This document shows, piece after piece, positions 11,120 through 64,000 of a stretch of 64,000 bases of DNA. Made by a program: the position numbers and the translations under genes. Position 1 is the first letter of the stretch. Each line of letters opens with the position of its first letter. The notes under the pieces are model-generated. The model made no database searches. It saw only the letters and a program-made list of their open reading frames with translations, and was not told the DNA's origin. Source of the DNA: Balanoglossus misakiensis (lineage: Eukaryota; Animalia; Hemichordata); the NCBI GenBank assembly GCA_040954595.2, contig CM082582.2:7814063-7878062 (forward strand), given 5' to 3'.

Positions 11120-12614
11120 ATGGCGGCCGTGTCCATAGTGGTAGAATTGCTCCCCAAAATTGTGGAACTCGGCCATGAAATCTCCAAAATTGCAGACGAA
11201 GTGGAACGAAACAAAGAGGAGTGCAAAAAGTTGGCAGAGAGGATCACTGAGCTAACAGGCGCTAGACAACAACTTGAGGGTCTACAGGACGACGACAAGA
11301 GAAAACTTAACGACGCGCTGGTTAAATTCTACGCGTATCTGAACCAAGCTAAGGAATTCGTGTCCGAATTTCTCGTTATCGGTTGCTGCGAGTCCATCTG
11401 GAAAAGAAGCAGGCACAGATCTCGCTTTGAGGACTTCAATACTCGTCTTGATCAACTGTCGTCCGTGCTGCAGCTGGGCTTAGATATCGAGGTTAAGAAA
11501 GATGTGGGCCAAATTAAAGATCAGGTTGACGATCTCAAACAGCTTGTCAAACAAGGTGAGAAGAACCCACTACATGTATTTAGATCTGCCACAGTCGGAA
11601 TATTTATATTATGACGTAGGCCTTCCACATGGCCGGGGACCGATCATTCGATACGTCCAAAACCCTTACCTTGCGCTTTTACAATATTTATTGCCTATTC
11701 AGGTTCCATATCCGCTTTCATCTGGTCAATTCCCTTCTTTCTTTCTGTGTGCATTGTATAACCATTGACCAATAATTTGCAGGACACGGAGAAACGAAAG
11801 CTGAAATTAACAATCTTCGTGAACAGGTGGACCGTGATGCTGGACCGTCGCAAAACGATCACCAACAAAAGGTAGTGATGGCGGTAAGCTTAAATTTCGA
11901 CCGATTTTTTTTCGGTAGATAGAAATGCATAGTCTACAATAGTCAAAACGTTTTATGAACACTGAAGGTACTAAAAGAACTTTATAAGCTTTTTGGAGTG
12001 ACTGTTATACATGTACATGTTTAAAATGAACGTACACGTATGTAAGACATCGTTTATATACATGCTCTTTTTAGACACAACAGCAAGTACCTTTACCGGG
12101 AAGCTGTGATAATCATGGTAAGTTTGTTTTCACTAATAAATGGTAAATTTTGATTCTTATATTTAAGTAGGCCTTATACTGTTAGACTGAATGAATAAAG
12201 CGGGTGTTATCACAGTGATTTATTGCATATCGGCAGCGAGAGAGGTTGTATAGGTTTTTCACAATGCGAACGGAAGTAGGCCTACTAGTTTTCAAGTCGT
12301 ATACTGTATGAAACTTGGGACCACTTTCTCTTTGTGCTCCAGATCAAGACCGACCAGTGACCGACGGAGATATCAGGACCATCTCCAGAGCACTCGGAAG
12401 AGACTTGAAAAGACTTGCACAATCACTTGGGTTGAAAAGTGTCCTCATTGATACCATTGGAATTGACCATGGCCACTACGGCGTTGAAGATCAAGCCCAT
12501 CAAATGATGGTTAAGTGGCGACAGAGTCTTGGAAAGGATGCCAAATATTGCGATCTGGTTGACGCACTTGCAGATATCGAAAGACATGATATAATTGAAC
12601 AACTTTCCAACTGA
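11120..12614 (+). CDS. MLKL-type 4HB domain + death domain fusion, copy 1, 283 aa. Exons 11120-11555, 11783-11883, 12075-12117, 12343-12614
   Basis: Exon 1 has the MLKL N-terminal pattern (EVERNKEECKKLAERI...LNQAKEFVSEF...RFEDFNTRLDQLSSVLQLGL). Last exon is a death domain (LAQSLGL...YGVEDQAHQMMVKWRQSLG...LVDALADIERHDIIEQL). 436+101+43+272=852 nt, all GT-AG, in frame; no kinase exons. Confidence 0.88.
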
Positions 12615-13495
12615 GCGTCAAGTCACGTGTCTAATGTTTCTCTAGGCCTCTACTTCTATACTACGGGGACATTTACTCATTTTAAGAAATATTTACTCAA
12701 AAATCGCACAATTATACCGCCGTTTATTAATGTGATAATAACATTGCGAAAATTCAAGCTTTTGAGCACGCAAGCTCTTGTGTACGTATAAAGACACACT
12801 TGTATTTGTGTGTGTATGTTATTTCACCATTACGTTATATGATTATATTATATCATGCTACCGTCCGCCATTCTGAATGCTCAATCGTCTATCTAGGTAA
12901 TATAAAACGGATAGTTACAAAAGGGTTATATTCTATACTTGGTAACAAAAATAAAGCAATCGGCTGCTTTCTGTGAGTCAAGAAATTCTCATGTGACGGC
13001 AGGAACTCTTCTAACCATCAAAGCTTGAGCAGATCACATCCAGCTTGTCTTTCACTTCTGTGGATGGAAAAGGGGATGACAATTTTTCATGTAAATGTTC
13101 ATTATACAATAATAAGTGGATATGGAGACGTGTTCTCAAAAGAGAATTGAAATGCAAACTCAGCTATTAGAGCTGGACTAATGCCATATACATGTACACA
13201 TGAGCATCATATCAAAGACTTAAATTCTGAATATTAAAATTTGTGTACACGTGTGCCTATATAGCTCCGCAAGAAATTTCCATACAAACCATAGATACTG
13301 GATAAAACCCAAACCAAGAATGTCATAAGATTACATGATATAGTGACATGTACCCTATCAACTTGTCATTATTTTTCAAAAAATAAAATAACTCTCACTT
13401 ACAACTTTTTTTCTCACATTTTTTCATCAAGAACTGTCGTTGATGGAAAATTTATTGATTGGATCATTGCTGTAATCATTGCAGGGTACTACTTA

Positions 13496-15278
13496 GGGAC
13501 CGTTCAGTTTTTACGGCCGGGGGGGGGGGGGCAAAATCCAGGGGGGTCACTTAAAGGGGAAATCCGCTGTAGCTGATTTCTACATAATTTGGTAGCTTTG
13601 ATGTCTCTCTTTCAGAAAAAAACATATTCGCCATGTATAGGTCGCGCGATTTTTTACAAAATCTAGGGAAAGTTGGCAGAATTTCCAATATGGCGTTTAC
13701 TGTAATTTGAATCATGGGAAAAAAAGCGCCAGGACCAACTTCCGCCCACCTTGGTGTGGGTGATACCATTTTCCGATTGGTGTCACTGTGTCACAAGCTA
13801 AGCGTATTTGCATATTTTTCATGGGTTATAGCTCATGAAAACTGTCAATAGATGACAAATTTTCGACTTTGCTGATGATTGTTTATCAACTGATGCAAAG
13901 AACAAACAATAGCTATGAAAATACGCCTAGTCTGTCGCCCAGTGACACCAATCGGAGAATGGTATCACCCACACCATGGTGGGCGGAAGTTGGTCCTGGC
14001 GCTTTTTTTCCCATGATTCAAATTACAGTAAACGCCATATTGGAAATTCTGCCAACTTTCCCTCGATTTTGTAAAAAATCGCGCGACCTATACATGGCGA
14101 ATATGTTTTTTTCTGAAAGAGAGACATCAAAGCTACCAAATTATGTAGAAATCAGCTACAGCGGATTTCCCCTTTAAATTTTGAAGTCCAAAAGGGGGGG
14201 GGGGGGTCATCTGTTTTTTTTAAACGTTTAGGGGGGGGTCACATACTTTTACCACCGAACTTTTGCTTTTGAGTCCACAAAATTGCAGTTTCGCGCCCTT
14301 TATTTTACAAAATTTTCTAATGTGGGAGGGGGACACCCCCTCCCACACCTACCCCCTACATTCTCTGCCACATTTCAATTTTTGCTGGTTTGTCTAGTGT
14401 ACCAGGGCAGGGTGCTTGCCACCCCAACCCCACTGATGATAATATTTAACAAAGTAAATACATAAAGGAGAATAATCGTTTAAACCATTTCGCATAACTG
14501 ATAGTTTCGCACTGCATCTTCTATATACTAGAAGTTTTATAAATGATGTCATGACGAAGATGACGCCAAATCTTCTAACTTTGAGTGGAATGGCAAAAAG
14601 TAAAATTGGTCCTCCCAAACATTGAGATGAATTTGCTTTTGAGTTCATAAAAATGCAACTTTGAGCTCCATATTTTACAAAATTTTCACCCCCCTCCCAC
14701 ACCCACCCCCTCCATTCTTCGCAACATATCATTTATTCGCTGGTTTGTCTAGTGTACCAGGGCAGACTTATTCCCACCCCACCCCTATGCTTACTTCGAG
14801 TGGAGTGGCAAAATCAAAATTTGTCCTGCCTAACATTGAGTTAATTTGCTTTTGAGTTCATTAAAATGCAACTTTAAGCACCGTATTTTACAAAATTTTC
14901 TTATGTGGGAGGGGGACACCCCCTCCCACGCCACTTTTCTTGTTTTACCAATTCTAGCAACTATTGTATTGACTTGTCATTTTATGTTGTTCATAGATTT
15001 CTTTATTGCAACGATATTATTATATAATTCAATTACTTTAAGAAATGTATAATTGAGGTGTGAGGAGCCTCGTTCCCTTTATTGCATACAGTGTACATAG
15101 GATCAGGACGGCGAATGTTTTCAGCGTGGGGGGGGGGGTCATCATATTTTTGGGTCTGTCAAAGGGGGGGGTCATCATTTTTGGGTGCTGGGTGAAGGGG
15201 GGTCGGCCTGATTTTGAAAACCCACGACACAAACTTGCCGACCCCCCCCCCCCCCTGCCGTAAAAACTGAACGGTCCC
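13496..15278. mobile_element. PIF/Harbinger-like non-autonomous element
   Basis: 22-bp TIR GGGACCGTTCAGTTTTTACGGC; TTA target duplication (13493-13495, 15279-15281); empty site TACTTACCGGC in paralogous copies at ~30233 and ~39098. Confidence 0.85.
13555..14173. mobile_element. Kolobok-like foldback MITE nested in the Harbinger-like element
   Basis: TTAA|AGGGGAAATCCGCTGTAG...CTACAGCGGATTTCCCCT|TTAA with ~230-bp near-perfect inverted arms. Confidence 0.8.
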
Positions 15279-15923
15279 TTACCGGCAATCTGCGGTCTCA
15301 TTAAACTGTCGAATGATCGGCACCTGTCAATAACTGTGCCAAACTCAGGTGGACAGTCATTTGTCAGCGGTTCCATCCTTTTATCGTCGACTAGACGATA
15401 TTCAGAGTCAGACAACCCTGCAAGCCAAAGTGACATGTGGTCTATTACAGCGCGTAGCTCATCTCACGGGCATGCGCGTAACTTTCCAGCAAATTTTCCG
15501 TTCGATGCATTCAAATAGTGGACTGCCTTCGCTTCCTTCCATATTTCATGCGCAATGTATAAGTAGATTCTGGTTTCGTCCCTCCATTTCAGCCAAGATA
15601 GTGTCGTTTCCCGATCTCCAACACAGATTATGGTCGCCGCCATCTTCTCTGTTGTTAGGACAGAGCACTGCCTTATGGGATTGACTGTTCTGTAACCTGA
15701 ATTTATGGAGTAGTTTAAAACGAATTTCTGCTCTGGATACTACCGTATTGTGTCAGTGTCTTTAGGACTGATGGAGCATAGATGGAGAAAGGAACAAAAT
15801 GATGTTCTATTGGAATTTATTTATAGGTCCCATTGGTATAGGCCTATATACCATGGGACCTTATGGGATGGGTTGCGTCTGTATGTATGGATGTATGTAT
15901 GTATGTATGTATGTATGTATGTA

Positions 15924-21163: not shown

Positions 21164-22577
21164 ATGGACTTATTCCCCCAAATTGTGAAACTCGGCAATG
21201 AAATCTACAAAATTGCACACGAAGTGGAACGAAACGAAGAGGAGTGTAAAACGTTGGCTAGGAAGATCACTGAGCTAACCGGCGCTAAACAACAACTTGA
21301 GGGTCTACAGGAAGACGACAAGCAAAGTCTTGGCCAGGCGCTGGTTGATTTCTACGCCTATCTGAAAGAAGCTAAGCAATTCGTGTCCGAATTTCGCGTT
21401 ATCGGTTGCTGCGAGTCCATCTGGAGTAGAAGCAGGCTCAGATATCGCTTTGAGGACTTAAATAGTCGTCTTGATCAACTGTCGTCCGTGCTGCAGCTGG
21501 GCTTAGTTATCGAGGTTAAGAAAGATGTGGGCCAAATTAGAGAACAGCTCAAACAGCTTGTCAAAGAAGGTGAGAAGAACCCACTACATGTATTTAGATT
21601 TGCCACAGTCGGAATATTTATGGCGTAGGCCTTCCACATGGCCGGGGACCGATCATTCAATACGTCCAAAACCTTGCGCTTTTACAATATTTATTGCATA
21701 TTCAGGTCCCATATCCGCTTTCATCTTGTCTATTCCCTTCTTTCTGTGTGCATTGTATAACCATTGACCAATAATTTTCAGGACACGGAGAAACGAAAGC
21801 TGAAATTAACAATCTTCGTGAACAGGTGGACCGTGATGCTGGACCGTCGCAAAACGATCACCAACAAAAGGTAGTGGTGGCGGTAAGCTTAAATTTCGAC
21901 CGATTTTTTTTCGGTAGATAGAAATGCATAGTCTACAATAGTCAAAACGTTTTATGAACACTGAAGGTACTAAAAGAACTTTATAAGCTTTTTGGAGTGA
22001 CTGTTATACATGTACATGTTTAAAATGAACGTACACGTATGTAAGACATCGTTTATGCTCTTTTTTAGACACGACAGCAAGCTATGTTATTATACGTGGT
22101 AAGTTTGTTTTCACTAATAAATGGTATTATTTAAGTAGTCCTTATACTGTTAGACTGAATGAATAAAGCGGGTGTTATCACAGTGATTTATTGCATATCG
22201 GCAGCAAGCGAGGTTGTATAGGTTTTTCACAATGCAAAGTAGGCCTACTAGTTTTCAAATTGTATACTGTAAGAAACATGGGATCACTTTCTCTTTGTGC
22301 TCCAGATCAAGACCGACCAGTGACCGACGGAGATATCAGGACCATCTCCAGATCAGTCGGTAAAGACTGGAAAAAACTTGCACAATCACTTGGGTTGAAA
22401 AGTGTCCACATTGATACCATTGGAATTGACCATGTCAACTACGGCGTTGAAGAACAAGCCCATCAAATGATGATTAAGTGGCGACAGAATCTCGGAAGGG
22501 ATGCCAAATATTGCGCACTGGTTTCCGCACTTACAGAAATCGGAAGACATGATATAATTGAACAACTTTCTAACTGA
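21164..22577 (+). pseudogene. 4HB-death domain fusion, copy 2. Exons 21164-21569, 21782-21882, 22069-22098, 22306-22577; short exon 3 puts the DD exon out of frame (truncated gene or pseudogene)
   Basis: Both domains are individually open (MDLFPQIVKLGNEIYKIAHEVERNEEECKTLARKI...; ...YGVEEQAHQMMIKWRQNLG...). Exon 3 is 30 nt versus 43 nt in copies 1 and 3, giving IKTDQ* after the last splice. Confidence 0.7.
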
Positions 22578-23668: not shown

Positions 23669-26600
23669 TTAGTGTAAGTACTCCACAAGATCCGCTCGCT
23701 TAATGTCCATGAGGGCCTTAGCCAGTACTGCGCGTGTGGCCATTCTTCCACGCCCCTGCTTCCATTTGACCAGCATTTGATGGGCTTGCTCTTCAACGCC
23801 ATACGCCTGGTGGTTAATTTCTATGTTCGCTACTAAATGCTCCTCAAGTTCGAGATGTCTTGCCAGAAATTTCCATTCTTTATTCACCCTCTTGGAGATA
23901 TTCGTCAGCTGTATGTTAGTCACTTTTGTATCCAATTCTGAAAGTTATTGAAATGTTGACTATAGTTATCATTTTTATATGACTTAAACGTTCCTCCAAT
24001 ATCTCGGAAATTTTTTTTGGATCATTCAAGACGAGACAACATTTAAATATTTTAAGTTGAGATTCAAAACCTTACTTCAGATGAATTGATAATACACAAA
24101 AAACTTATTCCAATATTTTCATTCGAATACCAAAGAAATCCCTCAGGCAATGTAAAACATGGGTAGTAGAGAAGGAAGAAATGATATGTTTAACTGTATT
24201 TCATGACTTCTGTTTGTTACAAAGTTTCATAATGACCAAGTATCACTTTAGTTAATGAACTCCCATTTTTTTAAAAATGGAAAAAAATCGGCAACCTTTG
24301 TGTCGACCATATGAGTTTTTCATCACTAACTTGTGAAGCATGAACCTACTTAAGGAAGGGAGAAAGCCACTGTATAAATACTTGCCATAATAGCCATCTA
24401 TATTCAGTATATTCCAAAGTTCATGGGTCAATTTATTGCAAAACTTCTGTCACGGTTTTATCTTATCTGTCTGTTCTGCGTAAATGTGCATTGGCGTTAT
24501 GTATACGTATTGTCACATATATTTGTTGTCATCTGTTGCCGGGTATATTTGGTATGTAACAATACCCATCAATTGATTGATGAGTTTTCAGTCTTTCAGC
24601 AACAATTAAGGGTATTGACAACAGTTATAGTTCATTTTAGTTCCTCTAACATCTGTCATGCACATTAGTATCTCAGTGTTGACTTGATCATTCAAAGCCA
24701 TAGAAAGAGAGGTATTAACTGGGCAACTTCTTTCAGATAGGACAGTGATGTAGCAAACAGTTACTGTGACAATCATAAGTGTGTTGGCCCGAGTCTATGC
24801 AGGTAACGGCTGTGTCTAAATCCTAACTACACAACTGCACCCGAATATCTGATCACAGGTTTAGCCTTGAATTGAAACTGTACCAAATTTTATTTCAATC
24901 CAATCTGCTCTCCATGACATATCAATCAATGCACGCACACTCACACTCACACTCACACTCACACACATACACATGCACAAAGCAAGTTTTGCATGTGAAC
25001 GAAGGAGTCCAAAATCAGGAACACCAACCTGAGCTTGATGCTGCTTTCTTGAAATCAAATCCAGCAGCCCTGGCTTGAGAAGCTTTATCTGATATGAATT
25101 CAAAATCAAACGGGGAGGCCATCTTCCCTTTGTCTTCTTCATGGTCAATGTCACTTTCATGTAAAAGATAAGCTGCATCTTGAAATCTTGCCAACGACCA
25201 AGCCTCACCATCTGTGCTCTCACAGAAACGCTGCATACTCTCTTGATCCAACTTGACCCATGTTGCACCATCTGTATTGGTTATCTACACCAGAACACAA
25301 ATGACAATCATTAATTTATGACTTTTATGACCATGATACCTACCACCCAACAATCCAGGGATTTTTGGTGACTAGTTATTCAAATTTTAATATTTTGGTT
25401 TTGTGCAAAACTTTCTTAAAATGAGGTACTTTTTAAATTCATAACAGGGCCATTACATCTAGTCTTCATTAACAAATGGTTAAGAATGTATAAGTTCAAA
25501 AACATCGATATGGGACCATAGACTTGGTCTCCCAGTTTGCCAAAAACTTAATCTGGGACCCAGAAATTTTAAGATGTATAGTCTGATATCATATGTATCA
25601 ATGAACGCTGTTGCCAGTGAGACATATGGCAGGTCATGAATAGTCCACTGAATTTTATTCACAATTTGACTGTCGGTTAAAACATAGGTTCAGAAAAAAT
25701 GGAAATTAAAATATGTGACCATGAACATGTAAAGGGTTCCCCTATAAAAAGGATTATACCTCTACTCTATATATGGCTATGTATAGTTGTCTGATATGCT
25801 CTGTGTCCCTTTCTCTCAAAAACTGTAGAGGGCGCATGAGTGTAAATCACATAAAGAGTCTCATGATGGAGTCCAGTGTACTGTAAAACACTTTATTTTC
25901 GCGAGTTAAAATTTTCGCGATATCGAGAGAAGCCACTGTTTCGCAAGTATTAATTTTTGTGTTCTCTTATTTCATTCACTGCATCGTTATCTTCAAAAAA
26001 AATTTACGCGACTTTTTATTTTCACGTTATTTTGGCTCTCACGTATTTCGCGAAAGTAAAATGTTTTACAGTATTACAAAACATGTGTCTGTGTCCTATT
26101 TGCCCTGCAAGTGCCCCCAAAATGTGGTGTTTGTCTCTATCTTTGGTCTCAGGAAATGTACCATTTTGGGATGACTCCCATCCCCTAATGTGTTACCCTC
26201 ATGTCCAATCAATGTGCATAAGGTAACTGAATACTTACATCTTGCATAACAGTCAACTGATTTCCATGAACCAACATACCAACTGGTGATGCTTTCAATG
26301 ATGGACGACTGCGGATGTTGTGTCCTGAAGAACTACATTTCACAACTTGGTAAATACCAGGGCCACTTGTTAAAGTACCTACTATAGTAGAAAGTCAAAG
26401 AGAGTGAATTTACTGGATACATACAGAAAAAGACACTGTCTGCAAGGCCCTAGTGTATTGTCCCTGTATCAAATTTGAATGAAATATCTAAGTATGGAAC
26501 ACAAGAAAGGATCAGGTAATACCTGTGATGTTGGTCCCTTGCAGTTGTCGACTTATGTCATCCGTAGCACAATCACCTGCGACTCTTTGGGATCCCGAGT

Positions 26601-41500: not shown

Positions 41501-42900
41501 GGGGTTATTGACAATGCAGAAAGTAAAAGATCATTTGATTCTGCTAACCTTTTTTTTGTCCTTTTACCTGCATATTGTGAAAGTATTATGTGTGTGTGTG
41601 AGGATATAGACAAACACTGTTGACAGCTTGGTGTCTAGACTTGAACTGAATACTGTATCACACCTACCTATAGCACTTTTGTTGTAATCCATTTCTTTGA
41701 CGATTTTTTCAACCCTGGCTACCACCTGTACCACCGTTTCAATTTTCTCATTCACATTTTCAAATCCAGTATGAAGTTCTTCTTCGATCTTCTTGTGATC
41801 TGTCGGTGAAAAAGATTTACATGCCAGTCTTTGTCACGTCTCTGTTGGTTCACCTATATTCATCACATAAATATCTAAGAAGCTATTTCTGTGAATTTAC
41901 TGTGTTACTACATTGTACTTCCAGGAAAATTGTTTCTCACACTTTAAAAGGAAGAAAAGTCCTGCTTTATCATCGCAATTGCTGATCAAAGTTATGTATA
42001 TCATATCCGTCTTTAATTGCTTTGTATAAAGGTATTCTGTGCACATTGAACCACTGTTACCATAACAAATTAAAATACTAGTATGTATAGCCTATCACAC
42101 ATTTTCAATGGGTGACAAACGCGAAAAAAAGTGCGCCACCACACTGTCATTCGCAGATGCAGACACGCCCATGAGACACGCCCTTGTGACTATGTAAATA
42201 ATACACGTAGGAGAAGTGACGCAAGACGGGGATATCTTTCATCGATTCTTGGTAAGAACTGAAGAGTTTCGAAAAGACCGGAACACGGTCATTCCAATAA
42301 AAAAAAAAAAAACGGGCGAGTGGTCGTGAAATGTGGAGCTGGCCTTGATTTAACTTCCCGCGAACCGGAACTTCGAAGTTGATCAACAATTTTTTGGAAT
42401 GTTCACAAACTTATTATCCTACCGTCTCTCATTTCGGTGATCAGCTTTTCGAATGTCTCCCAATCTGTTCTCTCGTCTTCCAGATCTTCTTTTATTTTTC
42501 TTGTTTGTTCAAACATTTCGTCGATTTTCTTTGTCGTGGCCACTTGCAGGCCGAGACACAAGGCGGGGACTAAGCTGTCGAGTCGCAAGTTGATGTCATT
42601 AAACCGGGACTTTATTTCATCTCTCTCCCACACCTTCAAGAAGCGATTGAGGTTCTTAAATTCTACGATGAACGCCTTGGAGGATTGGAGGCATGACAGG
42701 AGCTGAGTCAAAGCTTCCCGATACACTGTCATGTCTGCGTCGTCTAACTTCCGTGCTTGAGAGACCGGTTCGATCAAACTGTTGATCCTTTCCTTCAATC
42801 TCCGGCATCGCTTCTTGTTCGTCTTCACTTCCTCGATAATGTTGTAAATTTCGAAAGCGACGCCGATGACCGCTCCAATAATGTCACCGACCCCAGCCAT
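38595..42900 (-). CDS. MLKL: Mixed lineage kinase domain-like pseudokinase. Exons 42900-42423, 41799-41668, 41457-41292, 40814-40705, 40488-40280, 40015-39873, 39415-39366, 39241-39105, 38641-38595; 4-nt deletion in exon 8 gives a stop at 39125-39123 (468 aa instead of ~490)
   Basis: 4HB EEVKTNKKRCRRLKERI...FNDINLRLDSLVPALCLGLQV; brace EDLEDERTDWETFEKL; pseudokinase EARKMKTFDSMNVIRLFGIC, GACGLFRIH, LHRNIGSEKFLV, SEVYGYGIVMWEIAT. Matches vertebrate MLKL along its length. Confidence 0.9.
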
Positions 42901-46700: not shown

Positions 46701-48924
46701 TCTCGTCCCTTCAGTGGTACTTTTCAGTTCTAGTCAAGTTAAAAAAAATGAGAACTTCATATACTTGACAGAAAGGCCTCTTTTTTCAGAAAATACCCCC
46801 TCATTTCCATGCCTAAATTTGTGTCCATCTCGCATCATAAAATTGCAAATACTCTTTTGATGGTCAATTTCTATTTTACTACTTGCATTACAATTACAAT
46901 TTTAAGGGGTAAAATAACAAATTTGCCTGGAACACACCTCCAAATGTTGGTCTCTCCTCCGGATTGTCCTCCCAGCATTTCCGCATCATAGTTTTCAGGA
47001 ACTCGGGACATTCAGATGGAATTGCTGATTCGGGCGGCCGTTGTGAATTTCGTATGCAACTGCTTATGTGGTCTGAGTCCCTTGCATCTGTTGGATGAAG
47101 ACATTTTGGATGGAAGCATTAGTTGGGCTGCCAGATATAATGACCTACAGTGGTAACCAAACTTTGAATCCTGTACACCTGGTGAAACACTTGAGACTTA
47201 TGTATTCTGCAGCAATTTCACCATGATGGAAGAGATGTGACATCTGACGAGTAACCTTAAACATCGCACCAACCACAATCTTGTGTGCAGGTGCCCAGCT
47301 GGTTTCCAGTGATTATTTCTACATTTAGTTTTTTGAAGTTAAACGGAACATGGAAAGCACTTACGTTCAAATGGAATTTTATTTGTGAAGATTTCCCATA
47401 GAGTGATTCCAAAACTGAAATGTATAAATACATGTATATATAATATACTTGACATTTTCAATGAAATGATTAGAGTGCACTGCTTGGTGGCTGGAGATAA
47501 TGATTTGGTGGCAAGATTCTCTTTCAGTATTTTTGAATTTCAAAATGGAGGCAATTATGCAAAGGTGACCTCCATTTCTATTGCTAAATTTAGGAGAGGC
47601 TAATCTAAAGTTGCCTTGATAAAAATTATGAGAAAAGCTGATTCTCTAGGTGCTTACTAACTTAAATGCAAAATCTGTGACTTATGGTGATTAAATACTA
47701 ACCTGAACACATCACAAGCATATGTTGGAACTGCATTTATATCACGTAGGGATTCTGGTGCAATGTGTGACATGGTACCACTGGGTCTTCCACCAGATGC
47801 TCTTGGACGTTTGGAGTATTTTTTTGAGATTCTCTTCCATGTTGCTAGTCCAAAATCACAAACCTGCATCAGGACATCACATTAGGTCTGTAAATGCCAA
47901 CATTCTATACAACCTGGCAGCCACATTGGATAATATCACCATGTTGCTCGACTGCTTGTATCTCTGTACAAGGTCTTGACATTGTGAAATAATGTCCACA
48001 AGCGTGAATAATGTTCAACAGAAAATGCCAACGTAACAGATTAACAGCCTTGTGTTTTTCTTGCATTTGGAATTTAATGTGAACTGTCAAATTAAAAATA
48101 TTCTTTGACTTGTTTGCAATATATGTTTCAACACTGAAATTTTAACTGAGTATGGGATAGTATTTGCATTAAAGTGGACACAAACCTTTGCAACAAATCC
48201 TGTTCCAATGAGGACATTTCCAATTTTCAAGTCTCTATGAACAATCTGCGCCTCAGTGTGAAGGTAGTTCATTCCCAGAATGATGCCGTAAATCATTTCT
48301 ATCCTCATGGCCCACGGGTTGTCAAAGTCACGCTGGAACTTCTCAAGAGAGCGATATTTCATGTATTCTAAAACCAGTGAATAATCTGCAGGTTCCATGA
48401 TGACACCATAGAGTGGGACAACATGTTTGAAATGAGCTTTAGCCATCTTCTCTGCTTCAGCATTCAGTAACTTCTCTTCACTGAAAAAGCCAAAACATAG
48501 ACAGCAGTTGTGTTAATTATTTCCAGTGTTAAAGGCCTTTTTCTCAATCCCAGGGCAGAACAATGAAGGCAAACAAGCAGACGTTTTTCCACTTGCTTTC
48601 TATTACTCTGTGCTGGATATACTAAAAGATTGGCAGCATTTTCTGCTTGCTTTGCCAACAACCTTACTTCGACCATCCACCATTTTGTTTCACATGAAAG
48701 CAAAGAACACAAATGTGACAAAACCAGCGTTATAACAATGCTGCATACCTTTCTGACAGCCTAGTCTGGGCAAATATCCGCTTTATAGCAACGTCACCCA
48801 AGTGTTTATGATGGCCTTCATAGACATTTCCAAACCCACCACTGTCTATAAAGCCCCTTTCTTCAATGTCCGCCTTTGGTATAATGGAATAAGTGCATGT
48901 ACTTGTCAACGGCTGGTGACTCAT
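43750..48924 (-). CDS. RIPK1: RIPK1-like kinase-RHIM-death domain protein, ~666 aa. Exons 48924-48749, 48480-48186, 47863-47703, 47414-47365, 47087-46938, 46729-46641, 46249-46054, 45743-45480, 45050-44956, 44742-44670, 44486-44304, 44018-43750
   Basis: FIDSGGFGNV, VAIK, HRDLKIGNVL, CDFGLATWKRISK, GTMSHIAPESLRDINAVPT; RHIM IINISGNTKGVQIGDRNVM; C-terminal DD (LKEQNYQMLRAWKEEASSGATREKLANLL). Exons sum to 2001 nt in frame. Confidence 0.88.
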
Positions 48925-49735: not shown

Positions 49736-49995
49736 TTGGGGATAAACCATTGTGTGAGAAGGGGTTCGGGTGTTGTACAGTCAAACGGAAACACGCTAAG
49801 AAGGGAATGCACAAATTTGACTAATTGGATCAAAGAAATTAAAGACAATAACAAGTTTCCCATATAACTTGGAAAAATGAAAATATACCAAAAGCTTGCT
49901 CGTGAAGATGACGTCCCCTCCAACCAATTTTACAGCCGACAGAGTGGAACGATCAGAGTCTGTACCGTACCCATACGCCATTGCGACTTTTAAAC

Positions 49996-52900
49996 ATGGC
50001 AGCCTGCAGTGAATCGTTGCGTGTTGATAGAGACAAGCTGGACCCCACGTTCGATGGGTATAAATTGTCGTTGGACCCACTCCCAGTGTACAGTCTGTCG
50101 ACAGAGAGCGGTAAGTATTGTTTTGTCCCGTCCTTTACAAGGCCGTGACATCTGACATAGGTATCAGGGATTTATGGCTGATGAGCGGTCTGCCATCAAT
50201 CAATCAACCTATCGTGTACATGTACACACTACTGAACGCAAGCTCCACGTCATCTTCTCCACGTCGCTGAACAAACGCTGCAGGACGCTGCAATAATTGA
50301 CATGACCGTGAGCATGCACAATTTCTTTAATACAGCCGTGGTTCTTCTCACTACCTTAGTGGATTTTTACCTGTGCTAGGGGGTACTATTCAATATTGTA
50401 TTGAAATTGCATTGTGGGTAAAAAGGTCGACAACTCAACAGTCATAGGGAGAATTGAAACAAATAAATAAATAAGTAAAACTTGTAAACCTATTCCTAAG
50501 GTGGCATGGAATACTCATGGAAGTATACAATACAATATTTTTTGTCAACAGGTGTAGATGAAGTAAAGCTGCATGAAAACCAGTATTCGTTGCAGCATGT
50601 GAAAGCGTTTGGGATACACAACTATTTGGTGATGGACCAATGGAATCCACACTGTGTATTCTTTGTTGATGACCAGTGGAAAGTCAAGCAGATGAGAGTT
50701 GTACTGGTTAGTAAATAGCAAAAACATGGAAGTTTTTCACCTTACATTTGCAAAGTTCTGAACATTTTGAAGGAAGACCAGAAGTCAAGTTACTTTGGTA
50801 TGTCGCTGATGTGTTACATGGTCATCAGTATTGTCAACATACAAAATAGCTGATTGTGACCCTCGTGGCTTTGTTTTGAGAATGAGATTTTTATCGGGCT
50901 TTCACGAAGAAATGACTTCTTTGCAGTGATCACTGAATTGTGTGTTGGTGTCTCAGCGAGCTTTTGTTTGTGTGTTCTTTACTCCAGGAAACCCAGCTAG
51001 AATCCACCAAGACAGTATTCCAGATACCAGCGTCCAATCACAAATCAGCTTCCAACAGGCACTTTGTATCGTTTCATTTCCCAAGTCCCCATTGGTCAGT
51101 CCTGGCTGATGGTGCTGGATCACTGTATATATTAGAGACAGGCAACAGGGACCAAGAATCACCTCCAGAATGGAAGGTATGTAAATGTGTGATATACCAG
51201 TAATAGGAGAATATACAAACTGTATACACTTACAGGAAAGGGGGACTTTGTCACAATGGAAGGTAGATGGGGTACTATGTGCTCAGTCGCTGTGGCTGTC
51301 ATCTCTCAGATAAGCTAGCTAGCTTCTGAATTCCTGCCAATATTTACTGATTCTGTTACAGATAGCGCATTCTGAGGCAGTGTGTGGCAGTGAAAGGCCC
51401 TTCGTTGTGTTGGACTCCATTGTACATGTGTCAGACTCGAAGTGCACCATTGACTGTCTGCTGATATATATCGAAGAAGCTAAGCCGGACAGCTCCGAGG
51501 AATCAGAGTCCTCAACATCCCATTTTACATCGGTCATTGAATGGGTCACACTCACCAGACAAGGAGGTAGGTCAGCTATCTTGGTGGTTTGTTAGTTTGC
51601 AGTGTGATCCAATATGGTTGCCATAATTCCATTTTTCTTATCTGGAGCCATACATAGCTGATTCGTCTTCCATCCACCACATTGTAATTTAACCCATTCA
51701 CCCCCATTTCCCTGTATAGAGGTCCATCACTGCCACTGAGAACAATGGAGTTGGACGAAACCATGGTGGTGAGAGGGTTAAAATGTAGTAAAATGTGGCC
51801 GCCGCTCAGTCATTTTTCTGTGGATTTTAGTGGTGTTCAGGGTTGGTAGTGAAAAACACCTGAAATGATTTCTTTTACTGTTGGTACATGCTCTGTGAAC
51901 CATACCAAATGTGTACAACTTTCTGACAGTTACAGACCAGTTTGAAGTGGAAAGAAAGCGGAAACTGCAGTCCAAGGCAGCGCCTCAGTACGCGGCATTG
52001 GAGCCATCGGCTGAAGCTGTGTACATTGCTGCTGACTCCGACTATGAAATGGTGGAAGACTCGGTCAAACCTGTGAAAGTCAAGGACACCAAGGACAGCA
52101 AACGTCAGAAAGGTACATTGTAATGGATGCCAGTTGAGATAAAGGATATCTGTGCATGGTGTGAAAAAATTACGCAGGGATTATAGAAATGGGATAAATA
52201 TGTGGACAACCTATTAAAACTTAGACCATATCAATTATGGTATTTACAGCACACCAACTATGTGTTACATGTACATGTAACTGGGTAGCTGTTTATCAGA
52301 ATAAGTTACTAATCGCTGTGGCTGGTGCATTCAAATTCTGTGTGTTGCCCATGTGTCTGATGCGCATGTGAAAGTGTGCATATACTGGACCATCCTGGGT
52401 TTTATAAGAAACCAAAAACGCACTTACTGTGATATGCTGAATGAAACATTGCATATTAAAGAAACAACGTCATGTATTCATGATAAAATATCTGATGGTC
52501 AGCATGGTTTATCCAGGCCTATGTTTTTCCCCCTTGCTCTAGATACTGTCTACAGTTGGACTCAGTCCGTGGATGATGTGACCGTAACGTTCATTCTACC
52601 AGAGGGAGTCACCAAGGCGGACATTGACTATAAACTGACGTGCAAGGACGTAATTCTGGAAATCAAAAACCTGGTGACGTTACTGCAAGGAGATTTGTTT
52701 GCAATGGTGGACGTTGAAGCCAGCACCTGGACAGTGGAGAATAGGAAGTACGCGTGGGGTTTGTCTTTAACCATTCCCAGGTTGTTCTCAGTCGTGAATA
52801 TCAAATTCTCCTTGGGGGTGGGTGGGGGTGGTAGTGTATTGTCAGGATTTTCTAGGCTTTACCAGTCTCATCAATTGAAACTCAATCAAGTCTCATGCAG

Positions 52901-54254
52901 CTAGAATATTACATTCCAGCCTTTCTGCTGAATTCTCAAGAATATGTCGTAAAGCTGCATTTTACATCTGTATTCTAGGTTTGAACTGACACTGGCCAAA
53001 GTAGAGAGCGGTCCATTTTGGTCAGAGGTAGTGAGGGGTGACAAACGAGGGGAGTATGTCACTGATTCTGACCAAGCCGCAGAGATCCACGAAAGACTGT
53101 CTCATCTGACCTCCGACCAACTGGTAAGTTTTCCCTTGCAGCCTCAGTGAAGCCAGAGATACCATATGATGCAGTTTGCCTCTGTAAATGTGATTCGTGG
53201 TTTGATGCAGCAGCTTGAAAAGCAGGTATGAGGATGACGACCCCCGGGTATTTACCACGCACAACTGGGGTTGGATATTAGTGTCTAGTGGGTAAATGTC
53301 CAGGGGGTAACCATCCTAGAACTCCGCTTTTGAAAATGATACACATCACCAACTTTCCTGAACTGCACTGATCCTGCAGTGTACAAGCTTGCCAGATACT
53401 GTAGGTCACTTTCTTTCAAGATAAATTTATCACTTGATTGGGTGTTCCTTTTTTTTCAGAGCATTAGCAATGATGAAATAAGACCAGTATACAACACGCA
53501 GGAGTTGGAAGAGTGTGATGCATTTCCCGAAGACTCGTCTGCCATGGCTAGAATTGATGGAAATAAGCATGAGATCACGAATAAGGTTTGTGCCCTCAGA
53601 CATTTTTTTTCCATATGGCTTTCAGACATCCCTCAGTATTAGTGCATGAGCAAAGAGATAAATACTTTAATGCAGCAAAATGATAGCTGTTTGGGTTGGT
53701 ATAGAGTATCTCTCGCACTTACAGTTTGTAAAATATACTCGTAAATTTAGGTAGCACACACAAAGCTATGTAATTATAATTCTGTGGTGTTTTCAATCCA
53801 GGTTAGTCTCGGCAGCAACCAGTGGCTGTTCAACGTCGCCATCGAACCAGGCAAGGCACCGGCCACCTGCTTACGTTATGACGTGGACGGGTTGATATGG
53901 CAACCGGAGAAGCCCGAAAATGGGGGATCACCATGGAAACACATTGCGACATTCAACGCCCTTGGCTATGTGCAAGCCTCGAAAAGGGACCGGAAATTTG
54001 CCAGCTGCGCACCCAACTTGTCGTACGTCGCTCTCTGCGACTGCTCAAGGCATTTGTACGTTTACAGACAGAGCCTGCCGACTCAGACTCCCCTGAGAAA
54101 CAGAAAGACGGGGAAAACGGTCGGCCAGGTAGCGAAGCAGCAACTTGTTACCTTGGATACGAATGACAGTATACTGGGATTCCAAGCAGCCAACGAGAGA
54201 TTGTATATACTCACAAAAGATAAGATATATCTTGTCAGAATTCCGAAGGCATAG
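49996..54254 (+). CDS. NUDCD1: NudC domain-containing protein 1. Exons 49996-50110, 50552-50706, 50988-51176, 51362-51566, 51936-52112, 52543-52747, 52979-53123, 53460-53585, 53802-54254
   Basis: [42 protein letters not shown] domain [50 protein letters not shown]. Confidence 0.95.
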
Positions 54255-56419: not shown

Positions 56420-59400
56420 ATGGCAAGTTCGGATTTTCAGATAATCAACAGCGATACATTAGATATACTTGGCATGGTAGGACGAGGTGCCTTTGGGGTT
56501 GTGTATCTGGCCAACCACAAAGATTGGGAAACTAAAGTGGCCGTCAAAATATGCGACTCTACTCCAAGTAATGTCAGGTAAGTTGAAGGGTAAAAACTTT
56601 ATCCTAAAGGTTTTAACATTTGTAGAGCTACAGTTGTGATAGAGTTAATCACTTAAATTCATTTTTGCATTTCCATATTTGGGGGGGGGGGTGCAGTTTT
56701 ATCATACACCTGTTTTAACACTGAGACCATGGCCATTATTGAAATCCATTATGATGACCTGGCAAATCAGGACTCTGCAGTAGCCCCCCCCCCCCCCACC
56801 TTTTTTTTCTGAATCACAATTGTGGTTATAGCTGCAATAATTGTTTGTATCATTGGGTCACTGTTGTCGTTTTCTAACTATGTCTGCTGAAATTATTGCA
56901 GCTACATGGTGGTATGGATGGCCCTGTCAAGATGAAACGTACACTGGGCCTATAGTCAACTTTCACAAGTTTCATTCGTTTACATTTTTGATCTCTCTCC
57001 CACAGCATAAATCAGAGCATTTTTGACGAAGCCAGAAAAATCAGCAGGGCCAATCACAAGTACATCATCCGACTGTACGGAATAACCGAAGCCACAGGAC
57101 TTTGTGGACTTGTCATGGAATACATGGAAAACGGTTCCTTAGAAAGATTGCTGAGGGATCTAAAATCTGCGGTCAACATACCATGGCCGCTGAGATGGCG
57201 CTTCCTCGCTGAATTATGTACAGGCATGAACATTTTACATAATCTGTCTCCAGCCAAAGTGTTTCATTTGGATCTGAAACCTGGTAATATACTTCTTGAT
57301 GAACATTTGTCTGTCAAGGTAAGATTTAGGGCTATAGGATTAGTATTGTTTGTACTTTGCATCAGTTGATAAACAACTTTGTGTCTGACAGATCGTGATA
57401 GACTCGCTGACCTAAAGCATTTGTACTGACTCTTTTATTTTGCAGATTACAGACTTTGGTTTGTCAAAAATCAGAACCTCACAAAGTGCGGGAAAAGTAG
57501 CTGGTGGTCCTGGAGGAACTGTCACACATTATCCGCCCGAATATTTTGATCAGATTAATTTACCAGTGACAGAGAAGTTTGACGTGTACAGGTATGTTCT
57601 TTTATTTTGCAAGATTACAGCTTTTGATTGGTTTAAATGAAATGTTAGCTCTGGTATTGTTGTTTGGGAAATTACGTGAAATGACATCGGGCAAAATATC
57701 TTTCTTTTTTTTTTGGTCAGCTTTGGTATTGTCATATGGGAAATTATCACCAGGGAACAAGTGTACAAACGTGAGTGACTTGTGCAAAGCTTTCAATTTG
57801 GAATATTCCTTACCGTGCTGTGATTTTCCCCCCAAAAAAACTATATTTGCATGGGGTCTTAAAGTGGAATGTTACCCAAAATTTAACTTTCACAGTAGAA
57901 TGTGCTCTGCAACAGGATTTGTATGGAATTGTTTATCCACAGATGCCATTAACAGTGCTCAAATAGAAACAGGAGTCAAATGTAACAACAGACCGGATTT
58001 GAAGGAAATACCAAGCGACATTCCCGATGACATGAAGACAGACCTGTTACCCCTGATGAAACAGTGCTGGGATCAAGATCCCAAAGAGCGTCCCTACTTC
58101 AAAGGTAAGGAAGGAATAGGAATCAAGAAAATGCCCATATTTAGCACAAAGCTTTTATTTGAATTTTGCATGGGATACCACTATCGTATCTATAGGCCTT
58201 GGGAACGCTAGTATACCATGCATGGTACATGTACATGATCAGTATGGCAGAATCAGCCCATCTAAACTTTCATAGCAATGAAGGAACCAGATCACAAGCA
58301 CTCTATGTAGATGAAGGTCATTGCCGTGTCATATTTTTGGGCACACCATGGTTTTGTGTATGAAGTACCTGTAATGTATTGATTAATAAATATAACAAGT
58401 AATGTCTCAGACCATAAACTTCAACACATGATTTGAGTGGCAATGTTCAGCCAAGAATTACAAACAGAAAGATTTTGAGTCATGGCATTATATACGGATG
58501 TTTCTGTTTTAATCAGAAATGGATGATTGTTTTCCCATAGATATGTTAGAGTTTTTCAACACAAAATGTACGTCTTGTAGGGGAGAAATTTTTCAAGCAG
58601 TAGCGGACGTTCACAAAGATCTGGTGAGTACAAACACTATTGTGCACGAGTTTGGTAATCAAAGAATCAATTTTGATTGATTATCCAAATTTATTATATT
58701 TCGATAATATAGAACCAGCATTTTCTGGATTCTATTTTCAAGGTAGTTGATTTCATGAATTTTTTTTCTCCAAATTTACACCCAAATGTTCTTAATTTTC
58801 CTAGGAAGATGCTGGCAAGAAAGAAATTGAGCTATGTAACAAGTTCAAGAACGTGCTCAGATTGGATGGTGCTGTCAGCCACACTCGGAGCACCTTCGGC
58901 GCTCTGTCCAAAGTTCCGACTCAAGCCACTGCAGAGACTGAGGGAGATGACAAGGATGACATGGACACAGCAGACTCAACAGGTATGGTGTGATCAAACT
59001 ATTGCTTACGAACACTTGTCAAAATCTGATGGGTTGTTATTCTGGGTCGCAGCGTTGAATTTTAGATGTCTGGTGAAAAAGTCGTGCATGGGATGGGTCA
59101 TGATACCAAATCACAAACGGACTTAATGTGCAGGTTTTACGTATATTACAGTGGTGAAGGTTTTAATCCTTTCACCCCCAGTTTCATCTAAAGAAGTCCA
59201 ACCTTACTATAGAAAACAATGGGTTAGGACTGAACCATAGTGGTGAAAGGGTTAACTGAATCTTTCCTGGTTGCATTTCTGTTTTGTCTGCTACTTGCAG
59301 TTATGATGACTCTTATTATTCTTAAAAAAAACTGTAGTCAGCAAACCACTAACGATGTTCTTTTAATTTTTGTATGATTCAGTCCATCCACCCATTCAAG

Positions 59401-60827
59401 CTGTTTCTAATGTTGGAAGTAATCAGAGTCCAGGTGGTAATGTAAACCCAAGTGGCAATTACAGGTATGTGTATGTATCTGAACAACCACAATATCAACA
59501 ACAGCAACAACAACAACAACAGGTGAGTTTTGTACAGCTCTGTGCCACAACCTAAATCATCGGGGGTCTTGTAGAATATTATTATAGGCACACTGTCAAA
59601 TCGTCATATTTCTTATGGATATACCAGTGACTTCGTCCTGGTTTGCTCAAATATTGTTAGGAAATTGAGCTCACATATGTAAAGTTTGGAGCCTGTTGGT
59701 CATAACTAATACATGTACTAGTATCTGCCACACTTCAGCGCACCAATTCCTATCAAATGAGAGCAAAATGTCTTTCGTGCTATTTGCATTAGAAAATCAC
59801 CTTCAAAACATCTTGGCAGGTTGATATTTCCGAGTACACAATGGTCCCTGACAAATGTCAAATACCGGTAGATCTATGAATTGATAATTGTTTGAATGAA
59901 AGATGGATATTTAAAAAAACTTTTTGTTTTTTATTTACTTTCAGATGCCCCAGTTCATGCAGCCACAGTACATGCAACCACCAATTGCATATGCACGTAA
60001 GTATTTTTGCAACCATACCGCCAATTTGTCAAAGCAATTATGCTTGGAAAGTCAACGGGACAAGGCCCAAAGATAGCCCTATATGACAATTTCTCACAAA
60101 TACTTATGTTCGTGTGCACAGAAGTTTCTTCTGTACTGCCTGTATAGTCAAGGCTTTGCTGTGACCTTTATCAACAGAAAATGTGTACAACATTCAAGAT
60201 GCATCTCAAGTGATGATTGGTGGGCCTGGAACTAGACAAGACACTAGATATCCAAATGCACCAATAGCGTCACCTGTAGCAGAGCGAGCTCAGCCAAAAG
60301 GTAAAATGAGATGCATTATAAAGCAAAGGAGTGTTGAGTATGTACAGTAAAACCTTGATATGATGAAAGTCCACTGTTTATAGAACACTGTTACATATCA
60401 CATGAATGGAACTTGTAGGGAGTTGAACAATGAACTTTTGTATATACACAGAATATTATACTGAAAATACCAAAAGTTAAAGCTACTATCACTTTAAAGT
60501 GAAACTAGATTATTGTAGGCCAGATATACATGAATAATGACTTATAAAACTTGTCCTTCAGAGCCAACTGCTACAGTTGCACCAAAGACATTACTGCGGA
60601 TTTCCAAGAATATTGGCCCCAAGTGGAAGGAGCTTGGAAGGTGGCTGCAGTTTACCGACCCCCAGATTGACACCATCGAAATCGACCACCACCATTACGG
60701 AGTCCAAGAGCAGGCGTATCAGATGCTGTATCGGTGGCACCAGAAAAAGGGCAGAGCGGCTACACACAGTATTCTCGCCGAAGCCCTGAATGATATTGAG
60801 CGACCGGATCTGGTCAGCCACCTGTAA
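56420..60827 (+). CDS. Second RIP kinase (RIPK2/3/4-type kinase domain) with RHIM-like motif and death domain, ~556 aa. Exons 56420-56577, 57006-57318, 57446-57591, 57721-57770, 57943-58104, 58541-58623, 58805-58982, 59383-59522, 59945-59996, 60178-60300, 60562-60827
   Basis: VGRGAFGVVYLANHKDWETKVAVK, LVMEYMENGSL, WPLRWRFLAELCTGMNILH, HLDLKPGNILLD, ITDFGLSK, GGTVTHYPPE, CWDQDPKERP; VYNIQDASQVMIG; DD GPKWKELGRWLQF...YGVQEQAYQMLYRW. Exons sum to 1671 nt in frame. Confidence 0.88.
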
Positions 60828-63984: not shown

Positions 63985-64000
63985 GTAATTTATCCTATCT

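What the first reader, a model, noticed from the sequence alone, without database searches (positions are those of the whole stretch)
11120..60827. Physically clustered necroptosis-like pathway in ~50 kb
Seen: two RIP kinases with RHIM-like motif and DD, MLKL with extra 3' cassettes, and four 4HB-DD genes, interrupted only by NUDCD1 and an OSGIN fragment. The RIPK1-like stop codon is ~850 bp upstream of the MLKL start on the same strand. Known: human RIPK1, RIPK3 and MLKL are on different chromosomes, and RIPK3 is usually treated as vertebrate-specific. Inference: this is a linked, co-evolving invertebrate programmed-necrosis locus.
Basis: partly seen in the sequence, partly recalled or inferred. 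Interest (0 to 1): 0.85.

Follow-up and report, generated by a model that had tools for sequence, protein, structure and literature searches.

The report
Ancient clustered cell-death genes, acorn worm
An acorn-worm-like animal keeps relatives of the human necroptosis genes RIPK1, RIPK2/3 and MLKL side by side, likely the layout from before vertebrate genome doubling scattered them, together with extra genes that join MLKL's membrane-attacking bundle directly to a death domain or RHIM-like motif and would allow kinase-free triggering of cell lysis.

Summary
The cluster is real. The window is an acorn-worm-type genome (best hits Ptychodera flava). An intact RIPK1-like gene (kinase-RHIM-DD) ends 849 bp before MLKL. 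A second intact kinase-DD gene belongs to the RIPK2/3/4/ANKK1 side of the tree; it is not shown to be RIPK3, and its RHIM is degenerate.

Linkage is old. P. flava orthologues share one chromosome with accessions XP_070575922-926. RIPK1 and MLKL accessions lie 1-3 apart in 3 of 3 Branchiostoma species. Human RIPK1, RIPK2 and MLKL lie in regions of one vertebrate genome-duplication paralogon. Glandiceps and Saccoglossus do not show the linkage.

P. flava encodes a 4HB-RHIM protein, the fungal HELLP architecture, in the same accession run.

Ten paper searches found neither the cluster nor these fusions. Earlier scan notes held only fungal analogues. Function and expression are untested.

Verdict: new variant of necroptosis organisation; interest 0.75.

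The parts
43750..48924 (-). RIPK-A: RIPK1-like kinase-RHIM-DD gene, 12 exons, 666 aa; VAIK, HRD and DFG motifs intact; RHIM core VQIG in exon 11 (44486-44304)
   Evidence: maps exon by exon to P. flava P0011; 57% identity; RIPK1 clade 99/98
56420..60827 (+). RIPK-B: kinase-DD gene, 11 exons, 556 aa; VAVK, HLD and DFG motifs; degenerate RHIM-like stretch near 60180-60225; RIPK2/3/4/ANKK1 side of the tree
   Evidence: P0002 79% over exon 2; P0002 best PDB hits RIPK4 189 bits, RIPK2 171, RIPK3 153, RIPK1 145
38595..42900 (-). MLKL copy with 4HB exon, 9 exons; pseudokinase (HRN in place of HRD, DCG in place of DFG); 4-bp deletion in exon 8 gives a stop at 468 aa
29734..32725 (-). Headless MLKL cassette, exons 2-9, open frame with canonical splice sites; phase-compatible with exon 1 or exon 7 of the upstream copy
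   Evidence: (dN/dS 0.46 against the full copy, Fisher p 0.025)
13011..15417 (-). MLKL remnant, exons 8-9 only
11120..12614 (+). 4HB-DD gene A, 4 exons, 279 aa, open
21164..22577 (+). 4HB-DD gene B; N-terminus shorter than A and D; exon 3 frameshifted (exon 1 to exon 4 splice would stay in frame)
36712..38198 (+). 4HB-DD gene D, 4 exons, 273 aa, open; tail-to-tail with MLKL (396 bp)
23669..29035 (-). Gene C (predicted, 6 GT-AG exons, 433 aa): 4HB - RHIM-like exon (27437-27306) - linker - SH3-like exons (26324-26239, 25284-25029) - DD
   Evidence: SH3_3 E 0.0012, under cut-off; SH3 leads, scores under 0.9; RHIM-like 0 of 200 shuffles; not found by the HMM test
27046..27263 (-). Dead DD exon inside gene C, 75% identical in DNA to the RIPK-A DD exon, with stops and a frameshift
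49996..54254 (+). NudC-family gene (NUDCD1 by recall), head-to-head with RIPK-A (1071 bp between ATGs)
   Evidence: (CS domain)
33021..33271 (+). OSGIN 3' fragment at a duplication junction (MLKL intron 1 joined to OSGIN last exon); the full last exon is at 6727-7809
   Evidence: name recalled
62760..64000 (+). CFDP1-like gene running off the window (name recalled, no tool support)
   Evidence: Pfam gave no relevant family

Best explanation
The window holds a cluster of RIPK1-like, RIPK2/3-type and MLKL genes that is likely inherited from the deuterostome ancestor, and it likely works as a lytic cell-death module in which RIPK1 is the scaffold and MLKL-type four-helix bundles (4HB) are the executioners. 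Shown: gene structures, same-chromosome linkage in P. flava and B. floridae, an intact RHIM in RIPK-A, and kinase-less 4HB fusions. Inferred history: RIPK-A and RIPK-B are old duplicates (both lineages also occur in Lingula). The MLKL pseudokinase shares three of their five kinase-domain intron positions exactly and one more within two columns, so it may be a third duplicate. Vertebrate genome doubling with reciprocal loss would then have scattered the genes. Because RIPK1 runs head-to-tail into MLKL and the relevant introns are all phase 1, unequal crossover can join the 4HB exon to RIPK RHIM or DD exons; this would explain P. flava's 4HB-RHIM protein, gene C and the 4HB-DD genes. Inferred mechanism: a death-domain receptor or adaptor would oligomerise RIPK-A; its RHIM would template the 4HB-RHIM protein as in fungal HELLP, and its or RIPK-B's DD would recruit the 4HB-DD proteins, clustering the bundles for membrane attack without phosphorylation. 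Full-length MLKL would be switched by one of the kinases, more likely RIPK-B. A young triplication then made extra 4HB-DD copies and headless MLKL cassettes; in this haplotype an intact MLKL could only come from splicing into the downstream cassette. My odds: ancestral linkage about 0.8, functional lytic module about 0.5.
For: P. flava: MLKL XP_070575922, 4HB-RHIM 923, RIPK1-like 924, RIPK-B 926, all on a 42,365,775-bp contig. B. floridae RIPK1-like XP_035679812 and MLKL XP_035679813; the 705-aa RIPK1 P0278 (matched to 812 by name and length) and that MLKL both list a 28,086,088-bp contig. B. belcheri XP_019629185 and 187; B. lanceolatum CAH1270041 and 044. Lamprey MLKL XP_032816483 lies about 50 accessions from RIPK3-like 533/534 (weak). 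Human MLKL 16q23.1, RIPK1 6p25.2, RIPK2 with OSGIN2 at 8q21.3; Lamb's paralogon 10 joins human 14 (IRF9, 24.16 Mb), 16 (IRF8), 20, 6p (IRF4, 0.39 Mb) and 8 (JPH1). Shared introns. Kinase-less 4HBs of the window and P. flava form one group, 94/90, apart from the MLKL group, 99/99. P0126 model: helical bundle, long helix, disordered linker, C-terminal two-strand hairpin; top 7 Foldseek rows are MLKL executioner domains (E 0.014-0.17); its RHIM beats 300 of 300 and 200 of 200 shuffles. Amino-acid-changing sites in A/B/D diverge 2-4.5 times faster than flanking non-coding DNA in 6 of 6 comparisons. Amphioxus MLKL N-terminal domains kill HEK293T cells (PMC11476962). HELLP is triggered by a RHIM-like amyloid in a two-gene cluster (PMC7885112).
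Against: Glandiceps: the MLKL that groups with the window's (99/99) lists a 28,985,948-bp chromosome, while RIPK1-like proteins list 28,109,324 bp and two more MLKLs list other chromosomes. Saccoglossus: one MLKL and two RIPK1-like genes list three different scaffolds; its second MLKL was not located. Patiria RIPK-DD and MLKL accessions are 350-450 apart. So adjacency is seen in 2 of 4 hemichordates, 3 of 3 lancelets and 0 of 1 echinoderm examined. Accession order is a proxy, not coordinates. The window's full MLKL is frameshifted. RIPK-B has no significant RHIM, and gene C's is degenerate and passes only one of two tests. Human T357 aligns to Ala in P. flava MLKL. Saccoglossus MLKL domains were tested and are not among the killers. 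Sea cucumber MLKL is activated by caspase cleavage, not phosphorylation (PMC11932488). dN/dS among A/B/D (0.53-2.12) is significant in 0 of 6 comparisons, and synonymous sites are also elevated over non-coding in 3 of 6. No 4HB-DD protein among 150 of 640 library hits examined. An MLKL profile does not single out RIPKs among kinases (CTR1 202 bits, EphB1 170, RIPK4 167, RIPK1 163).
Confidence: 0.55

Rival explanations
1. Linkage by descent without a shared pathway: the kinases and MLKL are an old tandem array kept in slowly rearranging genomes along with housekeeping neighbours. The RIPKs signal mainly to NF-kB, MLKL is activated some other way (for example caspase cleavage), and the 4HB fusions are short-lived by-products of recombination.
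For: Housekeeping genes sit inside the block. Linkage is not seen in Glandiceps or Saccoglossus. Shared introns give a non-functional reason for adjacency. Fay et al. propose NF-kB as the ancestral RIPK1/3 function (PMC12119088). Echinoderm MLKL is cleaved, not phosphorylated. Frameshifts in MLKL, gene B and the dead DD show decay.
Against: The kinase-less 4HB group predates the split from P. flava and both species keep open frames. The P. flava protein keeps a significant RHIM at its very end. RIPK1-MLKL adjacency appears to persist in two phyla.
Confidence: 0.27
2. The 4HB-DD and 4HB-RHIM proteins are brakes or decoys: they bind the RIPK platform or MLKL oligomers and block killing, as dominant-negative paralogues.
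For: The 4HBs are only about 33-36% identical to MLKL's. Gene B has lost part of the hydrophobic first helix (mean hydropathy 0.31 against 1.34-1.92 for the other window and P. flava proteins). An unshielded killer domain with no pseudokinase would need some other restraint (inference).
Against: A, D, C and P0126 keep a hydrophobic first helix. Fungal HELLP and HET-S have this layout and kill.
Confidence: 0.12
3. The triplication (extra cassettes, copies A/B/D) is an assembly artefact in which divergent haplotypes were laid in tandem; the true locus has one 4HB-DD gene and one intact MLKL.
For: Non-coding divergence of 3-4% is within what allelic difference in marine invertebrates can reach (recalled). 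No reads could be laid.
Against: No N in the window. Two distinct, clean junctions join MLKL introns to OSGIN or spacer DNA. There are three units with different content, and DD exons are only 71-81% identical in protein. This rival does not touch the core RIPK-MLKL cluster.
Confidence: 0.06

Closest known systems
Vertebrate necroptosis core (RIPK1-RIPK3-MLKL)
   Same: RIPK1-type kinase-RHIM-DD protein; MLKL with 4HB, brace and pseudokinase (best PDB hits are MLKL); a second active RIP kinase.
   Different: Genes are adjacent. The second kinase keeps a DD, has a degenerate RHIM and is not shown to be RIPK3. Human T357 aligns to Ala. Kinase-less 4HB-DD and 4HB-RHIM fusions have no vertebrate counterpart known to me (recalled).
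Fungal HELLP / HET-S amyloid signalosomes (PMC7885112; PMC12881547)
   Same: MLKL-related helical bundle fused to a C-terminal RHIM-like motif, encoded next to a partner with the same motif (P. flava P0126 next in accession to RIPK1-like).
   Different: The partner is a RIP kinase, not an NLR. The 4HB groups with animal MLKLs and the motif resembles RIPK1's, so this is probably independent assembly by exon shuffling. In the window's gene C the motif is degenerate and followed by SH3-like and DD exons. Amyloid formation is untested.
Amphioxus RIPK1a/RIPK1b and MLKL
   Same: Kinase-RHIM-DD proteins; accessions next to MLKL in three species; MLKL N-terminal domains of two species kill human cells.
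   Different: The B. belcheri neighbour is the paralogue that groups with vertebrate RIPK1 (99/94), whereas the B. floridae and B. lanceolatum neighbours are the other paralogue. No lancelet 4HB fusion was seen. The adjacency was not mentioned in the passages I read.
Sea cucumber AjMLKL (PMC11932488)
   Same: Invertebrate deuterostome MLKL that mediates lytic death through its 4HB.
   Different: Activated by caspase cleavage at Asp17, with no RIPK binding detected; genomic context was not examined in what I read.

Membership tests
RIPK1 (RIPK-A) | N-terminal kinase grouping with RIPK1 | tested here: met
   99/98 split with vertebrate RIPK1; orthologue's best PDB hit RIPK1, 193 bits against RIPK4 158. 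With distant outgroups vertebrate RIPK1 moved away at 86/84.
RIPK1 (RIPK-A) | RHIM core followed by C-terminal death domain | tested here: met
   VQIG core, 0 of 300 shuffles; Pfam RHIM E 0.023, under cut-off; Death E 2.7e-12
RIPK3 (RIPK-B) | Kinase forming an exclusive clade with vertebrate RIPK3 | tested here: inconclusive
   Best tree puts RIPK3-type with ANKK1 (91/90), RIPK-B outside; constrained tree not rejected, p-AU 0.112; no RIPK2 sequence in the tree
RIPK3 (RIPK-B) | Canonical RHIM and no death domain | tested here: not met
   RHIM not above shuffles (37 of 300, 22 of 200); DD present, E 3.7e-16
RIPK3 (RIPK-B) | Binds and phosphorylates MLKL | not testable with these tools
   Needs an assay; the complex predictor was unavailable
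MLKL | 4HB plus brace plus pseudokinase lacking the catalytic Asp | tested here: met
   MLKL_N E 6e-26; HRN/HRS and DCG motifs; orthologue's top PDB hits are MLKL
MLKL | Intact full-length reading frame | tested here: not met
   4-bp deletion in exon 8 of the 4HB-bearing copy; an open 490-aa frame exists only if splicing uses the downstream cassette
MLKL | Activation-loop sites equivalent to human T357/S358 | tested here: inconclusive
   T357 aligns to Ala; a Ser one residue earlier is kept in 4 of 4 hemichordate MLKLs that cover the loop
HELLP/HET-S-type amyloid-gated executioner (P0126, gene C) | MLKL-related helical bundle with hydrophobic first helix | tested here: met
HELLP/HET-S-type amyloid-gated executioner (P0126, gene C) | C-terminal RHIM/PP-like motif shared with a neighbouring gene | tested here: inconclusive
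   Met for P. flava P0126; weak for gene C (passes the PSSM test, fails the HMM test; motif is internal)
HELLP/HET-S-type amyloid-gated executioner (P0126, gene C) | Amyloid templating triggers cell death | not testable with these tools
   Needs experiment
HELLP/HET-S-type amyloid-gated executioner (P0126, gene C) | Partner is an NLR | tested here: not met
   The RHIM-bearing neighbour is a RIP kinase; no NLR exon was recognised in the ORF translations

The most novel reading that the evidence does not exclude
Early deuterostomes ran necroptosis from one gene cluster, and acorn worms evolved kinase-free executioners from it: an animal HELLP (4HB-RHIM) fired by RIPK1 amyloid, and death-domain-gated 4HB proteins under rapid diversification. 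MLKL itself arose as a tandem duplicate of a RIP kinase, and human RIPK1, RIPK2, RIPK3 and MLKL are the scattered remains of this one locus.
Probability: 0.35. Interest if true: 0.9.

Novelty: new variant of a known kind. Interest (0 to 1): 0.75.

Why it matters
How necroptosis arose is open: RIPK3 is treated as vertebrate-specific, and the trigger of invertebrate MLKL is unknown or disputed. An ancestral RIPK1-RIPK(2/3)-MLKL cluster names the candidate upstream kinases. It would explain the scattered human genes as a product of genome doubling, and it suggests where MLKL's pseudokinase came from. A natural animal 4HB-RHIM protein would link fungal amyloid-gated death to animal necroptosis in one polypeptide. 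All of this can be tested by ordinary expression in cultured cells.

Tried and rejected
No whole genome is held, so copy number elsewhere and wider synteny were not searched. The metagenome scan with P0001 returned 45 loci; those with long matches were 23-33% identical and the four higher ones covered only 22-33 residues, so none was used. A DD profile over 150 of the 640 4HB hits found no 4HB-DD protein (4 of 4 DD-bearing controls found); Pfam on 75 of the 150 likewise showed no Death family among the rows displayed. A RHIM profile over the same 150 found only P0126. Gene C as sister of P0126 is neither shown nor rejected (p-AU 0.264, long branch), though they share IIEEIVQI. I recall the gene C SH3-like exons as resembling a region of MYCBP2; PDB, Pfam and Atlas gave only weak SH3 leads, so that name is untested. 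Positive selection on A/B/D is not significant by dN/dS. RIPK and OSGIN had 0 hits in the held part of Lamb's ohnolog table, which was cut, so placing them in paralogon 10 is my inference from map positions. PDB gave no OSGIN hit. Trees left out RIPK2 (no sequence fetched) and, the four outgroups and nine other rows, with P0280 added. 'Invertebrate RIPK3' was rejected as unproven.
Full report
Source. The window is intron-rich animal DNA without N. The MLKL 4HB exon's only hit among longer proteins was Ptychodera flava MLKL at 66%, and the two kinases' orthologues are also P. flava proteins. I take it as an enteropneust, probably a ptychoderid; the species was not determined. No genome is held and no RNA run was listed, so all gene models are predictions from splice signals and homology.

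Anatomy. RIPK-A (48924-43750, minus) has 12 GT-AG exons and 666 aa: active-type kinase, low-complexity linker, RHIM and DD. It ends 849 bp before the MLKL ATG, with one AATAAA in between. A NudC-family gene lies head-to-head with it, followed by RIPK-B (56420-60827; 11 exons, 556 aa; kinase and DD). MLKL (42900-38595) has nine exons, but a 4-bp deletion in exon 8 ends the frame at 468 aa. Self-comparison shows three tandem units of OSGIN end or spacer, 4HB-DD gene and MLKL 3' end. The junctions join MLKL introns to OSGIN or spacer DNA without gaps, and flanking non-coding divergence is 0.034-0.044. The 'extra cassettes' are therefore duplication products. The larger one (exons 2-9) is open, and splicing into it from exon 1 or exon 7 would give 490 aa without stops; whether this happens is unknown. 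4HB-DD genes A and D are open four-exon genes; B is damaged. Gene C, present only in unit 2, can be spliced through six GT-AG exons to 433 aa: 4HB, a RHIM-like exon matching RIPK-A exon 11 in phase and position, a skipped dead DD exon 75% identical to RIPK-A exon 12, SH3-like exons and a DD.

Identity of the kinases. Without distant outgroups, the kinase tree splits 99/98 into a RIPK1 side (RIPK-A, hemichordate, lancelet, brachiopod, annelid, starfish and vertebrate RIPK1) and a side with RIPK-B, Lingula P0061, a lancelet kinase, RIPK3-type and ANKK1. With outgroups, vertebrate RIPK1 was pulled away at 86/84. RIPK-B's orthologue scores RIPK4 > RIPK2 > RIPK3 > RIPK1 in PDB. An exclusive RIPK-B+RIPK3 clade is not preferred and not rejected (p-AU 0.112). 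I read RIPK-B as a pro-orthologue of the RIPK2/3/4/ANKK1 group. Its RHIM is degenerate; RIPK-A's is canonical.

Linkage elsewhere. P. flava MLKL, a 270-aa 4HB-RHIM protein, RIPK1-like and RIPK-B are XP_070575922, 923, 924 and 926 on one 42.4-Mb contig; 925 was not seen. If accession order is gene order, the 4HB-RHIM gene lies between RIPK1 and MLKL, where unequal crossover between the two would put it. RIPK1 and MLKL accessions are 1, 2 and 3 apart in B. floridae, B. belcheri and B. lanceolatum, and the B. floridae pair lists one contig length. Against this: Glandiceps lists its MLKL orthologue and RIPK1-like genes on different chromosomes, Saccoglossus on different scaffolds of a fragmented assembly with one MLKL unlocated, and Patiria accessions are 350-450 apart. 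Proteins hidden inside 50% clusters could change the Glandiceps result. In humans, MLKL is at 16q23.1, RIPK1 at 6p25.2 and RIPK2 beside OSGIN2 at 8q21.3; RIPK3 at 14q12, CFDP1 and OSGIN1 at 16q23, NUDCD1 at 8q23 and ZBP1 at 20q13 are recalled. Lamb's paralogon 10 ties human 14, 16, 20, 6p and 8 together, and ZFHX2/3/4 lie at 14q11.2, 16q22.3 and 8q21.11. Two of those chromosome sets also carry paralogon 11 genes (positions recalled), so the 6p and 8q assignments are less specific. The simplest reading is one pre-vertebrate linkage group, scattered in vertebrates by duplication and loss.

Why they are neighbours. RIPK-A and RIPK-B share 5 of 5 kinase-domain introns by column and phase. MLKL shares three exactly, one within two columns (the same 50-nt exon) and has one of the same phase six columns away, plus one intron of its own inside the domain. 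Sequence profiles do not single out RIPKs as MLKL's nearest kinases, and I had no control set of other kinase gene structures, so origin of MLKL from a RIPK is a hypothesis.

The fusions. The kinase-less 4HBs (A, B, D, C, P0126) form one group at 94/90, apart from MLKL proper, so they predate the split from P. flava. The P0126 model has a confident helical part, a disordered linker and a low-confidence C-terminal hairpin over the RHIM (mean pLDDT 74, pTM 0.48). Its top seven Foldseek rows are MLKL executioner domains, none at E 0.001 or below. Among 150 of 640 library hits, none carried a DD and only P0126 a RHIM. A, B and D diverge faster at amino-acid-changing sites than in flanking DNA in 6 of 6 comparisons, but dN/dS is significant in 0 of 6.

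Mechanism. Committed reading (inferred): RIPK-A is the scaffold. Its RHIM would template 4HB-RHIM proteins, DD contacts would recruit 4HB-DD proteins, and clustering would release the bundles to the membrane; full-length MLKL would be switched by a kinase, more likely RIPK-B. None of these contacts was tested. Evidence against a working pathway: the MLKL frameshift, the weak RHIMs of RIPK-B and gene C, Ala at the T357 position, Saccoglossus domains not among the killers in HEK293T, and cleavage-driven activation in sea cucumber.

Literature seen. PMC11476962: first fifth of the text, sections 2.4 and 3, passages, supplement rows and part 1; its synteny analysis covers vertebrates only in what I read. 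PMC12119088: passages and supplement 4 rows; no Saccoglossus or Ptychodera row there. PMC9573974: passages, part of section 14, section 15; its Figure 6 of neighbouring genes could not be seen and may show MLKL beside amphioxus RIPK1. PMC11507063, PMC4262963, PMC7885112, PMC10492769, PMC12881547, PMC13112774, PMC10082810, PMC2211742, PMC12391177: passages only; the supplement of PMC11507063 yielded no text. PMC11932488: abstract and one section. PMC8040251: supplement rows only. Dondelinger 2016 was not seen. Ten searches listed no paper whose title, abstract start or read passages describe the cluster or animal 4HB-RHIM/4HB-DD proteins; MLKL+RIPK+Ptychodera gave 0 papers. Most subscription journals are outside the library. 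Earlier scan notes held nothing on this place or sequence, only fungal kinase/MLKL-like pairs, which I did not check.

Verdict. A real, probably ancient cluster with unusual executioner fusions; function unproven. New variant of a known kind; interest 0.75.

Noticed in passing
window 116-790 (minus): 225-aa stop-free frame with no Pfam family; looks like the start of a gene or transposon fragment.
   Followed up: no
window 16965-17879: 239-bp tandem repeat, 3.8 copies, 94% matches, near the first duplication junction.
   Followed up: no
window 19230-19671: 52-bp tandem repeats in two opposed arrays forming a large inverted repeat.
   Followed up: no
window 15489-15688, 18687-18892, 30434-30596, 35049-35237: A roughly 190-bp element present in MLKL intron 7 of both cassettes and in two spacers, absent from the full MLKL copy and from unit 1's spacer; possibly a short mobile element.
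   Followed up: partly
window 26324-26239 and 25284-25029 (minus): SH3-like exons of gene C that by recall resemble a region of the ubiquitin ligase MYCBP2; tools gave only weak SH3 leads.
   Followed up: partly
window about 46195-46180 (minus), RIPK-A exon 7: AETD/S resembles a caspase-8 cleavage site (motif recalled); amphioxus RIPK1 has LETD/A at a similar place.
   Followed up: no
P0308 (Branchiostoma hybrid, 870 aa): RIPK-B-side kinase fused to a trypsin-like peptidase domain.
   Followed up: partly
Lamprey accessions XP_032816483 and XP_032816533-536: MLKL lies about 50 accessions from RIPK3-like and RIPK2-like proteins, hinting at retained linkage in a jawless vertebrate.
   Followed up: no
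window 4416-4509, 51687-51782, 59161-59255, 63559-63653: A 90-95 bp interspersed repeat in four introns.
   Followed up: no
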